Part shown: one piece after another, positions 2,879 to 14,676 of the stretch
Layout of the letters: the number at the start of each line of letters is the position of its first letter
How positions within the stretch are numbered: position 1 is the stretch's first letter
Assembly: GCF_006345805.1 (NCBI RefSeq)
Contig: NW_021825007.1
Location: 1 to 16,939 of the forward strand
Length of the DNA stretch: 16,939 bases
Reading direction: 5' to 3'
DNA from: Octopus sinensis
Taxonomy: Eukaryota
Position numbers and translations under genes: made by a program
The notes under the pieces: generated by a model
Told to the model about the DNA's origin: nothing
The model's input: the letters and a program-made list of their open reading frames with translations, nothing else
The model's database searches: none

Positions 2879-3358
2879 GATGCACTCTCCCGTCGGTTTC
2901 GACGTATGAGTCTCCGACAACTTACTCGTTCTTTGTCAGTCGAATGTGACATTTAAGTCCCGCCAACGATTTGCAAAGAAAGCCACACAAGTATGAGGAT
3001 TAGAGGCGGTGCAGGTTGTGTATTTGCAGCCGCTTTTCTCCTTTGCCTTTCACCCCGAAACCATGCAACATGGGTTTTAATACCATTTTCAAACAGCAAT
3101 CTCCATTTTGCTCGTTCCAAGGTTGTTCGCCCAAAGGTGTTGTGAGCTATCTCCATCTCTAAGCGGTTACTCTTCAGCTTGTCCTTGTATTTGAGTCATG
3201 GTCGACCGATATACCTGTGCCCACTCTCAATTTAGTTGTACACAAGGACTTTGGGTATACTTTCGTCACTTATTCTGATGACATGGCCAGTCCAGTGCAA
3301 TTATGATTGTATGAGGAAGCTCTCCATTCCACCAATCTTACACTTGCTGAACAAGTCA
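2879..3358 (-). mobile_element. RTE-clade LINE 3' end (5'-truncated, pseudogenised)
   Basis: Manual translation gives LIQS*LHWTGHVIRISDESIPKVLVYN*IESGHRYIGRP*LKYKDKLK...ERAKWRLL. After a frameshift it continues CGFLCKSLAGLKCHIR, a terminal zinc-finger remnant. It has three in-frame stops, and the 3' UTR ends in (TA)n. Confidence 0.9.
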
Positions 3359-5952: not shown

Positions 5953-6127
5953 TACCCACCCGGCAGCCGTAAAACAGAAATTCCCCTCGTTGCCATAGTT
6001 ACCGTCACCAACATCAACCCCGCCACTGCAGCTCCTGTCCCAACTCGAAACCACTATAACACCAGCCACATCCATCACGTTTATCACATACATCATAACC
6101 TCGACAACCACACAAGAATCAGAGCAT

Positions 6128-6323
6128 AAACCAATACATGAACCTCTAAGGGGTTACTTGACCAGCTAGAAACAGCAGTCAAATCTCCCTCAACTCACAC
6201 CCAATTTTCTTCAAAATGCCAAATTGGATAAAGCTATGGATTACCCGGTATGGCTGTTTGTCACGGCTGGAATGTCTTTGAGCATAGGTCTCCCCGATGA
6301 GGGCTGCCCTAAAAAATGACAAC
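6128..6323 (+). mobile_element. short non-tRNA retroelement, family X (copy 1)
   Basis: It shares GACCAGCTAGAAACAGCAGTCAAATCTCCCTCAACTCACACCC and GGCTGGAATGTCTTTGAGCATAGGTC with the copies at 7621-7885, 10115-10342 and 10455-10668. Confidence 0.75.
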
Positions 6324-6354
6324 TTGTATGATGCTGTTTAGAGGATACAAAAAG

Positions 6355-6520
6355 GTAGTGTTGGTCATGGTTGGAAAGCTTTCCTGCTTAGATCTCTTAG
6401 ATCAAAGCGGACCTGGAGGCTAATAACCCCAACAACGACAACAACTACTTCTACTACTACAACTACTACTGATGATGCTGCTGCTGCGGCTGCTGCTGCG
6501 GCTACTGCTGCTGCTACTGT
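6355..6520 (+). mobile_element. 3' tail fragment of family X running into a (CAA)n to (CTA)n to (CTG)n trinucleotide tract
   Basis: The sequence GGTCATGGTTGGAAAGCTTT...GGACCTGGAGGCTAA is followed by CAACAAC. Confidence 0.6.
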
Positions 6521-7048: not shown

Positions 7049-7620
7049 CACTCACACATACATCGTCCCATCAATCCATATATACATACATACTCCTGAA
7101 TGATATCAATTAAACGACAAACGAAACAAAAGAGCACTCAGTACATTATGTAGAGTATATATTTGTAGGGCGGTGGTGCTGATGGGGGTGGCAGGCGATG
7201 AGTTGTACTGCCATACACTGATTTGCATAGGTAAGAATTCAAGCACCTAGGATTTAAACTTTAAATGCTGGACGGTATAATTCCCTTACACCCCCCCCGC
7301 ACACACACACACGTGCGTGGGTGGGTGTTTACGTGTGTGTGTGTGAAAAAGAGCGACAGAGTTCTTAGCAGCTGCGTGACTATATTTAACACCGGTCTTA
7401 AATCCGGTGTTCTTGTTTAGGTTGTACCCATTTATGACATGACCCTAACTGAGCAGTTCAACAAATAAGGATGGATATAAATAGTGCCAGATTAAAAGGT
7501 GTACTAAAATTGATGTCACCGACTGAAAACTATTGCCGGCCATGCTTCAGCACGGCCACAGTCCGAGGACTGTAAGCAGTAAAATGAAAAATAAATATTA
7601 GACGGGATGATGAATTTAGT

Positions 7621-7644
7621 ATTGTTGTTGTTGTTGCTGTTGCT

Positions 7645-7682
<38 letters not shown>

Positions 7683-7885
7683 ACCTCAGGCCCGCCCTAA
7701 CCCGACAGATCAATGGTTGAAGACATTCCACGACCACCGCATCGGTTTTTGTATGCAGGGCTATAATCATCCAATATGTCCCTTTCTCCTCTTCACAAAA
7801 TGATTAAGGGGGTGTGTGATTTGAAGAAGTGATTCGGCTGCTATTTCTAGCAAATCAAATGATTACGTCCCCCTCGTTGGCTTGC
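7621..7885 (-). mobile_element. family X (copy 2) with long (AAC)n tail
   Basis: The minus strand reads AGCCAACGAGGGGG...TGCTAGAAATAGCAGCC...CAAATCACACACCCC...GGAATGTCTTC...CCTGAGGTTAAACAACAAC. The (TTG)n tract spans 7621-7680. Confidence 0.75.
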
Positions 7886-10342: not shown

Positions 10343-10454
10343 ATGCAATGTTAGTAACTTTGTTAGTAAAGAGGGGGGTCTTGTTAGGGGTTCGTTGGTG
10401 GTGTTAATGACATCAATTTTCTACACAGGAGGGGACATAGAACTTAATCGGTTT

Positions 10455-10668
10455 GTCCCCTGGTCTTGAGCCTACCTATGATCAGAGGCATTCCAGTTAA
10501 TCCCACGCTTCTCTTCTAGTTAAAATCTATCCCAGACTGCATCATCGAATTTGTCCCTTTTTTTCTTTTCTTTTCCTTTTTAGACGATAGGGTGTATTTT
10601 GATGAAGATTTGGCTGCTATTTCTAGCTGGTCAAGTGACCACATAAAGGTCCCTTCGTCTGCTCACCT
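10455..10668 (-). mobile_element. family X (copy 4), best-preserved 5' end
   Basis: The minus strand reads AGGTGAGCAGACGAAGGGACCTTTATGTGGTCACTTGACCAGCTAGAAATAGCAGCCAAATCTTCATCAAAATACACCCT...CTGGAATGCCTCTGATCATAGGT. Confidence 0.8.
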
Positions 10669-11482
10669 TACAGCTTGGTACAACCATAGGTGCTCTACTA
10701 AACCGAGGTACACGATGATGTTATTACTAGTATGATGGTGTTATAACTAGTACGACTGACAACCATGAAAATATTGTTTGTACTAACGAGATACCAACTT
10801 TATTTTGTGAACTTTCATGTCTTCAAATTCATTTCTTAGAATAGATTGTTCTTCGTGGTCTTCGACTAACGGATCCTCTTCCATTTTCAAAGAATATTTT
10901 TAGTACTTCCTACTAACCGACATTTTGTCTTTGTTGGGTTTTATAATCGTGCACCTTAATCTATATTTCCAATGAAATATAGTTATAAATAATATCAACA
11001 TCAGTTTTTTTATAAAAAAAAATCGATTGAAAATGTTTTATACTCTTCCATTTTTCTGTCGCCTTCGATCTTCGATCTCTTAAGATTTTAGTATTAGTAT
11101 TACAAACGTCATCCTTAACCTCTCCTCCATTGTTCTTCAGTCGTTGTTTTTTCCCCCTCTCCTTCTTACATCTGAGATATAACTTATCTTTATATTATAC
11201 CTTTATACGGTTATCAATGTTTATCATTTCGTTTCTTTCCATTTTTTTGTATTACTTCGTCGTACTGATGTATTTATCTCTAATATAACTATTTTTAGCT
11301 TTCCTTTTTCATTGGCATTCGTTCAAACATATATTCGTGTCTCTTGTTCTTTCAGTCCAAATTATATTTACTCTAAAGCATTATTATTATTTTTTTCTCC
11401 AATGCATATTTCTCTTATGCTTCCTTGTTTAAAAGTCCATAAATATTGAGGTATTTGTAGTGTTAAGACCTTAATGTTGTGA

Positions 11483-11673: not shown

Positions 11674-12801
11674 CTACACCTCTTCTAGATCTATCTCTTC
11701 AAAGTCTCTGAAATCGTCAGGCCATGGAACAGAAGATACACCTGTAGGAGAGTTGTTCAATTCTTTCACTTTGTGTTTTTTGCCCTTCTCCGGATTTCCT
11801 TTACCCATGCTCGGAACACCGTCCGGCTCTTGCGATCCACGACGCTCCAGAGAAGAACATTTTCCCTCAGTTGAATTATCGATGTCCCTGGTTGAGCAGC
11901 CTTTACGTGAATCATGGAAGGCTTTAAAACAGACTGCTTTACAAATGTCTGGACAGGGTGATACAGAAATTAATTTTACATTCCCATGACCAACATTTTT
12001 TACACCTGGACCCAAAATGTATTTTAAATTTTTCAACGAAAGATATTCCCCTTCTTCTTGGTCAGATGCTTGTTCTACAGTATGATAGGATTCACTTTTG
12101 TTGCTATCCGTGCCTGAGTCAACATAGCTACCTAGGTCTGAATCATAAGACAACTTTGAACTATGCATTGGTTCTGCTGTATAAAAGGAATCAGAATCGG
12201 AGGCAATTTCGTCATCAAGTTCTTGAACATTAGTTTGATCGTGGAAATCGTAGAGTGATTGGAGGTTAGTAGTTTTTGCTGAAGCGCTTCTAACCATTAT
12301 GTCATGAACAAGCTTAGGTTCATAGATATCATCTTCGAGGCAGAAAGAAACAGTTTTGGCTCTAACAATAGGAGTGGAATCTTCATTTGAATCGAGAATA
12401 ACCTTTGATTCAATGATGTCTTCCTCTGGACGGAAGACAACAGATTTAGATTTTAAGTCAGGAGAGTTTGTTGCGATTAAATAAGAAGCGGAGCTTGATC
12501 TGTATGAGGATTCTTGCAATGGAGTTGAACCAGATTTTGTGTTCAAATCATTGGTGCAGACATTTGAATTTGGAACAACTTGTTGAGAGACGTTTATTTT
12601 GCGTGGTAAGAAATCGGTTTGCGTACATGAGTCCACAGTGGGCATTTGACCGAGGCAAGGAATAATTTCTTCCACAGACGCATCATTTCTTGAGATGCAA
12701 CAGCAGAAGAAAAAATTCATGAAACAATGGCCGATCCTCGAGAAAAGGTCCATCAGATAATCTCTCAAGTTGAGATTTTCGTCCGGAGGCTTTTCGAGCA
12801 T
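11674..12801 (-). CDS. uncharacterised Ser/Asp/Glu-rich, probably disordered protein, 375 aa, single coding exon
   Basis: This is a 1128-nt open frame of non-repetitive sequence in AT-rich DNA. The first ATG is at 12801 with A at -3 (the track starts 6 codons earlier at a GTG). There are in-frame stops upstream at about 12832-12837, and the stop is TAG at 11674-11676. I see no transposon motifs and no recognisable domain. Confidence 0.75.
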   Translation of the reverse strand: MLEKPPDENLNLRDYLMDLFSRIGHCFMNFFFCCCISRNDASVEEIIPCLGQMPTVDSCTQTDFLPRKINVSQQVVPNSNVCTNDLNTKSGSTPLQESSYRSSSASYLIATNSPDLKSKSVVFRPEEDIIESKVILDSNEDSTPIVRAKTVSFCLEDDIYEPKLVHDIMVRSASAKTTNLQSLYDFHDQTNVQELDDEIASDSDSFYTAEPMHSSKLSYDSDLGSYVDSGTDSNKSESYHTVEQASDQEEGEYLSLKNLKYILGPGVKNVGHGNVKLISVSPCPDICKAVCFKAFHDSRKGCSTRDIDNSTEGKCSSLERRGSQEPDGVPSMGKGNPEKGKKHKVKELNNSPTGVSSVPWPDDFRDFEEIDLEEV

Positions 12802-14015: not shown

Positions 14016-14676
14016 TGATGTATATTTTTATCAAACATTTTATAGCCATGTTGTATATCATCGAGCAACTTCGAGAGAGTTATTAAAGCTAAACAAAAGA
14101 GGAGTGGTGATTGAGGGTCAGCCTGGAAAATACCACAGGAAATTTTTACATCTCCAGCATTGAGAGATTCATTGTCACTCTTCAAAGTCAGTGTGTTTCT
14201 CCATGATCTCATACTTACAGGCAAAAAGTTTCGCAGAGTAGACGCTATTTTATACATTTCCATACATTTTTTAATCCAGCTATGTGGTAGACTATCAAAA
14301 GCCTTTTTATAGTCTATCCAGGCTATCGACATGTTTTGTGTCGTTTGTGACAATCTTCTGGGATCATCTTAATAATGAGTAGCTGATCTTTTACAACCAT
14401 AAGACCCACGTTTACAACCTTTTTGCTCATTAGGGAATATGCCACTTTCTATTAAAAAAACTATATATTCACTCGAAACAGATGATAGTATTTTATATAT
14501 TGTTGTTAAGCAGGTGATGGGTCTATAATTTTTTGGTTCATTTGTTTCTTCATTTTTTAGAAGTAGTAATGTAACACCATTAACTAACCAAGAGGGAATC
14601 ATACTAGGTTGTTGCAAAACATTGTTGTAAAGTTTTGTTAGCAGTCCATGGCTCTTTGGGAAGGTATTCAACCATC
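14014..14676 (-). mobile_element. R4/Dong-clade non-LTR retrotransposon reverse transcriptase fragment (pseudogene)
   Basis: Translation gives PKNYRPITCLTTIYK...EQKGCKRGSYGCK/DQLLI (after frameshift)...AWIDYKKAFDSLPHSWI...GIFQADPQSPLLFCLAL...GY. There are compensating +1/-1 frameshifts near 14390-14335, and the fragment ends just before the YMDD motif. Confidence 0.9.

What the first reader, a model, noticed from the sequence alone, without database searches (positions are those of the whole stretch)
10601..10670. Short retroelement family that appears to begin with an HDV-like ribozyme instead of a tRNA head
Seen: four copies (6128, 7885, 10115, 10668) of an element of about 200-260 bp with no Pol III boxes and, in most copies, an (AAC)n tail. 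The 5' end of copy 4 parses in HDV order: P1 AGGTG, P2 GACGAAGG, P3 ACC, a 7-nt L3 TTTATGT, P3' GGT, P1' CACTT, linker GAC, P4 (consensus CTGCTA-GAAA-TAGCAG), J4/2 CCAA, and P2' TCTTCATC. Copy 1 has AACC-TCTAAGG-GGTT against GACC-TTTATGT-GGTC in copy 4, an apparent compensatory pair. Copies 3 and 4 both keep GAAGG/TCTTC. Established: R2, RTE and other non-LTR elements use 5' HDV-like ribozymes with a 3-bp P3, a 7-nt UCCNCGY-type loop and a C-N-A-A J4/2 to cut themselves from host transcripts. Inference: a promoterless, ribozyme-headed non-autonomous retroposon. Copy 4 is sense to, and downstream of, the orphan gene. Caveats: P1 looks short (5 bp versus the usual 6-7), P1.1 is not clearly formed, and all copies are decayed.
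Basis: partly seen in the sequence, partly recalled or inferred. Interest (0 to 1): 0.8.

Follow-up and report, generated by a model that had tools for sequence, protein, structure and literature searches.

The report
Fossil Ingi retroposon with ribozyme head
This is one decayed copy of a very abundant short jumping element whose reconstructed first 65 bases are predicted to fold like the self-cutting RNA of trypanosome L1Tc elements; it is likely a cut-down Ingi-type retrotransposon, a known kind of element, and cutting was not tested.

Summary
The family is real: about 215 bp, (CAA)n tail, no Pol III boxes, roughly 2x10^5 copies (30 hits in 400 kb of sampled DNA, 0 in the control), 73% mean identity to the master. 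The correct P1 starts at the first conserved base (C1), as in trypanosome L1Tc; the P3/L3 core matches L1Tc at 11 of 12 bases and the single P1.1 pair is U-A here, A-U in L1Tc and C-G in an Ingi-type LINE I found in the same genome. That LINE has a similarly folded head, ends in the same 10 or so bases, and has its own head-plus-tail derivative. So this is most likely a RIME/NARTc/SIDE-like Ingi derivative. Against an active ribozyme: master P1 is one position short with a C-C mismatch, copies show no covariation, 0 of 59 are intact, and the sister derivative lost the predicted catalytic C but kept its 5' end. 'Promoterless' is unsupported. The direct parent LINE was not found.

The parts
10451..10665 (-). 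Copy 4 of the family, near full length, (CAA)n tail missing
   Evidence: Aligns to master positions 2-211 at 79%; orthologous copy in relatives' contigs has the ancestral C at 10665 and 10660
10601..10665 (-). HDV-like head of copy 4 (master positions 1-65), decayed
   Evidence: Ungapped to the master; master passes the relaxed descriptor
10660..10665 (-). P1 5' strand; predicted cut site just 5' of 10665
   Evidence: Conservation starts here in 56 copies; master CGAGCC, copy 4 has two changes
10651..10656 (-). P2 5' strand
   Evidence: Master GAGGGA pairs with TCCCTC
10638..10650 (-). P3-L3-P3' core
   Evidence: Master GCC / TCTACGT / GGT; copy 4 has lost two L3 cytosines
10630..10637 (-). 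P1 3' strand (6 nt) and the two J1/4 bases (A forms the single P1.1 pair with L3 U)
   Evidence: two CpG decays in copy 4
10614..10629 (-). P4 hairpin, 6 bp with GAAA loop
   Evidence: present in the MFE fold of the master
10601..10613 (-). J4/2 (candidate catalytic C at 10613 or 10612), 2-3 extra bases, P2 3' strand
6127..6450 (+). Copy 1 (5' bases decayed) plus a second tail piece and (CAA)n
7620..7884 (-). Copy 2 with long (CAA)n tail; 5-nt deletion in P3/L3
10114..10345 (+). Copy 3; 13-nt deletion removes L3, P3' and most of P1'
11674..12801 (-). 375-aa ORF upstream of copy 4 (context, not part of the element)
   Evidence: no Pfam match; relatives' contigs, guessed to be RNA, run from it into copy 4

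Best explanation
This is a decayed copy of an old, very abundant short repeat family that is likely an internally deleted, non-autonomous derivative of an Ingi-clade LINE, keeping a 5' head predicted to fold as an L1Tc-type HDV-like ribozyme and a 3' hairpin plus (CAA)n tail. Shown: the family, its fixed 5' end at C1, the base-pairing potential of the master, and an Ingi-type LINE in the same genome with the same head plan, the same last bases and its own head-plus-tail derivative. Inferred: the master RNA began at C1 because the inherited head set that end, probably by acting as an internal Pol II promoter and, weakly or only in the ancestor, by self-cleavage; an Ingi reverse transcriptase would have recognised the 3' end and inserted copies by target-primed reverse transcription. 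Present copies are dead. I put self-cleavage by the master at about 0.4.
For: Family size and age: 30 hits in 40 x 10 kb, 0 in reversed DNA; 2.0x10^5 copies, bootstrap 1.2-3.0x10^5; 58 two-ended copies 73% identical to the master. 5' end coincides with P1 base 1 although the search pattern did not fix positions 1-6. Master passes a relaxed HDV descriptor once, at position 1; 0 of 20000 shuffles do. L1Tc Pr77 sequence (PMC1874656 passage): CC-L3-GGT core identical at 11 of 12 bases; L1Tc also cuts before a C1 and has a one-pair P1.1 (PMC3185411 passages). That pair is A-U in L1Tc, U-A here, C-G in Ingi-2. Ingi-2 at G000:C9:3603748-3611670 has head, 2A motif, Cys-rich region, endonuclease, RT, RNase H and ends GCTAAA(CAA)n like this family. 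Its derivative N2 (L396-L401) joins head to the last ~70 nt. Master head aligns to three N2 heads at p 0.003-0.02, including the stretch after P2. Four of 29 regions upstream of 2A motifs give full HDV folds with the same 2 extra bases after J4/2; 0 of 58 controls.
Against: Direct parent not found: the tail does not align significantly to Ingi-1 or Ingi-2 beyond the last ~10 bases (p 0.2-0.3), no Ingi coding fragment was found in 254 other loci, and similarity to the Ingi-2 LINE head itself is p 0.08. Master fails the strict descriptor: P1 has 6 positions with a C-C mismatch. The descriptor was written after seeing the sequence, so 0 of 20000 overstates significance. No covariation among copies: 1 of 20 pairs at p<0.05 against 3.3% of 1752 unpaired column pairs. 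Target-site duplications inconclusive. Clade assignment rests on domain order, not on a tree with named references. Promoter activity is borrowed from L1Tc and untested.
Confidence: 0.7

Rival explanations
1. The master head was a fully working ribozyme and the only thing setting the 5' end: a promoterless element cut out of host transcripts.
For: 5' ends sit at the predicted cut site; master keeps L3 U and G, the P1.1 pair and a J4/2 cytosine; five Watson-Crick P1 pairs, four of them G-C.
Against: P1 one position short with a C-C mismatch; P1 mismatches are reported to impair HDV-like ribozymes (PMC3774820 passage; PMC4035085 passage). N2 has A at the predicted catalytic C in all 6 head-bearing copies yet the same 5' end. 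L1Tc transcripts start at +1 from a promoter in the same 77 nt, so a fixed 5' end does not prove cutting.
Confidence: 0.17
2. The element is a hybrid or comes from another ribozyme-bearing LINE clade (RTE, R4/Dong, R2): head from one LINE, tail from another, as in R2/R1 hybrid SIDEs.
For: Tail not alignable to the two Ingi families; an RTE here also has an HDV-like head (L140, read by eye); hybrids are known (PMC3414825 abstract).
Against: No hit of the element HMM at RTE, CR1 or Jockey-like ends among 68 RT loci; C1 start and one-pair P1.1 match L1Tc and Ingi-2, not the G1/GG pattern of L140; terminal GCTAAA(CAA)n is shared with Ingi-2. R4/Dong ends were not examined.
Confidence: 0.09
3. The fold is coincidence in an ordinary headless SINE or repeat.
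For: No covariation among copies; no Rfam ribozyme match; MFE z only -2.0; descriptor tuned after the fact.
Against: P1 starts at the exact element boundary; 11 of 12 match to the L1Tc core; same plan in independent LINE heads. Rfam also missed the Ingi-2 heads, and neutral copies of one master are not expected to covary.
Confidence: 0.04

Closest known systems
NARTc / RIME / SIDER (non-autonomous derivatives of trypanosomatid L1Tc/ingi with the Pr77 head)
   Same: Short, head plus tail of an Ingi-clade LINE; HDV-like head starting at C1 with 3-bp P3, 7-nt L3, one-pair P1.1 (PMC3185411, PMC4035085, PMC1874656: passages).
   Different: Animal genome; about 2x10^5 copies; (CAA)n rather than poly(A) tail; P1 of 6 positions with a C-C mismatch; parent not identified; activity untested.
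R2 SIDEs of Drosophila
   Same: Ribozyme head joined to a LINE 3' end, no ORF (PMC3414825: abstract and outline).
   Different: SIDEs are rare and rDNA-specific; this family is dispersed and abundant and its head is L1Tc-like.
Bipartite non-autonomous RTE and Vingi elements (Bov-A, RTESINE, Vingi-1_EE derivatives)
   Same: Animal, headless, 5' plus 3' LINE parts (PMC5786205: passages).
   Different: No sequence match to RTE ends here; four motifs of this family are absent from that paper's supplement.
Ceph-SINEs and octopus tRNA SINEs (OK, OR1, OR2)
   Same: Cephalopod short interspersed repeats.
   Different: Those have tRNA heads (PMC5786205 supplement passages; PMC4758252 reference title); this family has none. 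OK/OR sequences themselves were not seen.

Membership tests
HDV-like ribozyme | Nested double pseudoknot order P1-P2-P3-L3-P3'-P1'-P1.1-P4-J4/2-P2' | tested here: met
   Master passes relaxed descriptor at position 1; 0 of 20000 shuffles
HDV-like ribozyme | P1 of about 7 bp without mismatch | tested here: not met
   Six positions, five pairs and a C-C mismatch; Ingi-2 and N2 heads have 6-7 of 7
HDV-like ribozyme | 3-bp P3, 7-nt L3 with conserved U and G | tested here: met
   GCC/GGT with one G-U, L3 TCTACGT in the master; lost in window copies 1-4
HDV-like ribozyme | P1.1 of 1-2 bp | tested here: met
   One U-A pair plus C-C; one pair suffices in L1Tc
HDV-like ribozyme | Catalytic C in a CNAA J4/2 next to P2' | tested here: inconclusive
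   Two candidate Cs, 2-3 extra bases before P2'; 2 extra bases also in four LINE heads, whose activity is unknown
HDV-like ribozyme | Covariation in helices | tested here: inconclusive
   None among copies or among 8 Ingi-2/N2 heads; across three families the P1.1 pair and P1/P2 sequences differ while pairing is kept (compared by eye)
HDV-like ribozyme | Mg2+-dependent self-cleavage needing the J4/2 C | not testable with these tools
   Needs an in vitro assay
Bipartite non-autonomous Ingi derivative (RIME/NARTc-like) | Short, dispersed, no ORF, simple-repeat tail | tested here: met
Bipartite non-autonomous Ingi derivative (RIME/NARTc-like) | 5' part homologous to the 5' end of an Ingi LINE | tested here: inconclusive
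   p 0.003-0.02 to N2 heads, 0.08 to the LINE head; same fold plan
Bipartite non-autonomous Ingi derivative (RIME/NARTc-like) | 3' part homologous to the 3' end of the same LINE | tested here: inconclusive
   Only the last ~10 bases, tail unit and a terminal hairpin are shared; parent may be extinct
Bipartite non-autonomous Ingi derivative (RIME/NARTc-like) | Target-site duplications | tested here: inconclusive
   12 of 58 copies score >=8 against 9.8% in permuted pairs, no peak at the 5' junction
Bipartite non-autonomous Ingi derivative (RIME/NARTc-like) | Internal Pol II promoter in the head | not testable with these tools
   Known for L1Tc only
tRNA/5S/7SL-headed SINE | Small-RNA head with Pol III boxes | tested here: not met

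The most novel reading that the evidence does not exclude
Animal Ingi LINEs have kept the trypanosome Pr77-type head, a C1-started HDV-like ribozyme with a one-pair P1.1 that doubles as a promoter, and one derivative with a still-cutting 5-bp P1 became one of the largest short-retroposon families of this genome; sister derivatives show catalysis being lost while the 5' end is kept.
Probability: 0.3. Interest if true: 0.7.

Novelty: new member of a known kind. Interest (0 to 1): 0.5.

Why it matters
It would give a name and origin to a large, probably 'unclassified SINE' share of this genome (893 of 900 recently active SINE families in an Octopus vulgaris annotation are unclassified, PMC13282606 passage), extend the L1Tc-type ribozyme from trypanosomes to an animal Ingi lineage, and supply a natural series (Ingi-2 LINE head, N2 without the catalytic C, this family with a short P1, tandem subfamily B) to test whether cutting or promoter activity fixes the 5' end of such elements. 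The kind of element is known; no function for present copies is shown.

Tried and rejected
Rfam scans: no ribozyme match for the window or for six loci including Ingi-2 heads (one weak hammerhead row off the head). RTE, CR1 and Jockey-like LINEs as parent: no element match at their ends. Ceph-SINE identity: rejected. Young intact copies: a 28-nt head pattern had 0 matches; copies chosen by an 18-nt CpG-intact core were still decayed. G/A variant at position 12 as a compensating subfamily: no link to position 63 (p 0.67). Longer P2/P3 spacing: 22 of 25 matches are subfamily B (its 5' or P1' letters or arrays), 3 are dispersed. Metagenome pattern scan: 12 chance matches. Ingi-1 5' end: truncated. 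TSD search: inconclusive. RNA: no RNA holder listed on record; contigs cannot show ends; one contig from a relative (X1, guessed RNA) runs across the predicted cut site of copy 4, which is weak evidence either way. Earlier findings of the scan: none returned. Literature: no paper with octopus+ribozyme+HDV+genome, octopus+SINE+Twhin (the name Twhin was recalled), or three family motifs; searches listed no description of this family. Ruminski 2011 (PMC3308841) was not held; Repbase/Dfam were not available, so the family may already be catalogued there.

Full report
Setting. The window is G000:C1478 in a 2.72-Gb genome with about 30 large contigs; microsatellite content and repeat types suggest an octopus-like animal (inference; not pursued).

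The family. A DNA search with copy 4 gave 41 scored matches on many contigs. An HMM from 58 copies found 30 hits in 40 evenly chosen 10-kb stretches and none in the reversed DNA, about 2.0x10^5 copies (bootstrap 1.2-3.0x10^5). Of 266 distinct hits, 103 near-full ones were aligned: about 215 bp, an A run in the middle, a 3' hairpin region and GCTAAA(CAA)n. Fifty-eight copies with both ends average 73% identity to the master (67-81%), so the family is old and dead. It is also present in runs under four other organism labels. No tRNA, Pol III boxes or Rfam head.

The 5' end. Two 21-nt patterns covering positions 7-27 gave 26 and 30 copies. Upstream columns, not fixed by the pattern, show C/T in 43 of 56 at +1, G/A in 41 at +2, A in 39, G/A in 48, C in 30 and C in 32, and background composition from -1 outward (one of the 56 is an array copy). 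For copy 4, +1 is window 10665. Contigs from relatives carry the ancestral C at 10665 and 10660.

The fold. The master gives P1 CGAGCC/CGCTCG (five pairs, one C-C), P2 GAGGGA/TCCCTC, P3 GCC/GGT, L3 TCTACGT, one P1.1 pair (U-A), a 6-bp P4, and CAAA or CCAA followed by 2-3 extra bases. It passes a relaxed descriptor once, starting at position 1, fails the strict one, and 0 of 20000 dinucleotide shuffles pass; the descriptor was written after seeing the sequence. In 1.3 Mb of natural loci it gave three chance hits and no family copy. With 12 array loci left out, 1 of 20 helix pairs showed excess double changes against 3.3% of 1752 unpaired column pairs, paired and unpaired columns decay alike, and 0 of 59 copies covering the 5' end were intact. 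This is what neutral copies of one master give; it neither supports nor refutes the fold.

Comparison with L1Tc. The 77-nt L1Tc head (oligonucleotide R77 in PMC1874656, passage) matches the master at 11 of 12 bases over CC-L3-GGT (compared by eye); the differing base is the P1.1 base, A-U in L1Tc and U-A here. L1Tc cuts before C1, has a single-pair P1.1, and the same 77 nt are in NARTc and RIME and start transcripts at +1 (PMC3185411, passages).

Ingi-type LINEs in the genome. An RNase H search led to Ingi-1 (endonuclease, RT, RNase H, CCHC, (CAA)n; 5' end truncated). Its RT matches long single proteins with endonuclease, RT and RNase H, several with a 2A motif and PHD; one ORF with an N-terminal 2A is the Ingi pattern (PMC3708506, passages) and RNase H separates Ingi from Vingi (PMC13708176, passage). 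A second family, Ingi-2, has a full-length copy at G000:C9:3603748-3611670 with a nested RTE. Its head starts with C and folds with P1 6 of 7, ACC/GGT, a 7-nt L3, a C-G P1.1 pair, CGAA and a 7-bp P2 with one bulge; over 8 heads 94.9% of cells pair against 33-46% when slid, with no double changes. It ends GCTAAA(CAA)n. A small derivative, N2, joins this head and 5' region to the last ~70 nt: the same architecture as the family studied. The master's first 88 nt align to three N2 heads at p 0.003, 0.018 and 0.012 and to the LINE head at p 0.08; tails do not align (p 0.2-0.3). No direct parent was found. All six head-bearing N2 copies have A at the predicted catalytic C yet share the 5' end, which argues that cutting is not needed to fix that end. 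Four of 29 regions upstream of 2A motifs, all on unplaced contigs, give complete folds with two extra bases after J4/2, and 0 of 58 controls do (looser L3 and no P4 test); so the long J4/2 is not unusual in this lineage, whereas the short P1 is.

Mechanism. Shown: family, boundary, pairing potential, Ingi-type relatives. From established knowledge: Ingi, Vingi, RTE and R2 give bipartite non-autonomous elements (PMC5786205, passages; PMC3414825, abstract). Inferred: a master RNA starting at C1, set by promoter activity and perhaps weak cleavage, was reverse transcribed from its 3' hairpin/(CAA)n end by an Ingi protein. Copy 4 itself has only two Watson-Crick and two wobble pairs in P1 and a damaged L3 and is very unlikely to cut; it lies downstream of a 375-aa ORF without Pfam match, probably in its 3' UTR (RNA guessed).

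Novelty. The kind is known. I found no description of this family or of an animal Ingi ribozyme or in passages of PMC13282606 (plus supplement search), PMC4758252, PMC8967140, PMC10294476, PMC6765202, PMC4035085 and PMC3774820 (passages, sections 15 and 18). Ruminski 2011 and the repeat databases could not be seen and may cover it. Verdict: new member of a known kind, interest 0.5.

Noticed in passing
G000:C9:3603748-3611670 (L406, L348): Full-length Ingi-type LINE (Ingi-2) with an HDV-like 5' head, 2A motif, Cys-rich region, endonuclease, RT and RNase H, interrupted by a nested RTE.
   Followed up: yes
L396-L401 (e.g. G000:C16:32730148-32730430): Small head-plus-tail derivative of Ingi-2 (N2) whose predicted catalytic C is A in all six head-bearing copies.
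   Followed up: partly
L174, L192, L200, L201, L222, L223, L412-L432 (C1, C17, C27, C29, C30, unplaced): Subfamily B: tandem arrays of 90-107-bp units made of the family head plus (TATG)n, younger than the dispersed copies, with a changed P1' and a longer P2/P3 spacing; how they spread is unexplained.
   Followed up: partly
Unplaced contigs such as C1794, C7755, C8694, C8851, C12462: Intact 2A-bearing and Jockey-like LINE families that gave no hit on the large contigs among 150 matches; probably a second organism assembled with the host. Several carry complete HDV-like heads.
   Followed up: partly
L140:1704-1770 (G000:C16): RTE LINE 5' end that reads by eye as a canonical HDV-like fold with one P3 mismatch in this copy.
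   Followed up: no
L298 (G000:C23:10263.8-10267.6 kb) and about 40 scored 3' fragments: Second Ingi-type family (Ingi-1) with (CAA)n tail; 5' end not recovered.
   Followed up: partly
window 11674-12801 (-): 375-aa acidic, serine-rich ORF with no Pfam match; conserved at about 90-95% in relatives' contigs guessed to be RNA.
   Followed up: partly
window 14069-14647 (-) and 3079-3354 (-): Decayed RT fragments; the second is RTE-like.
   Followed up: no
L404, L405, L441, L290: Inverted 5' pieces next to Ingi bodies, as expected from twin priming.
   Followed up: no
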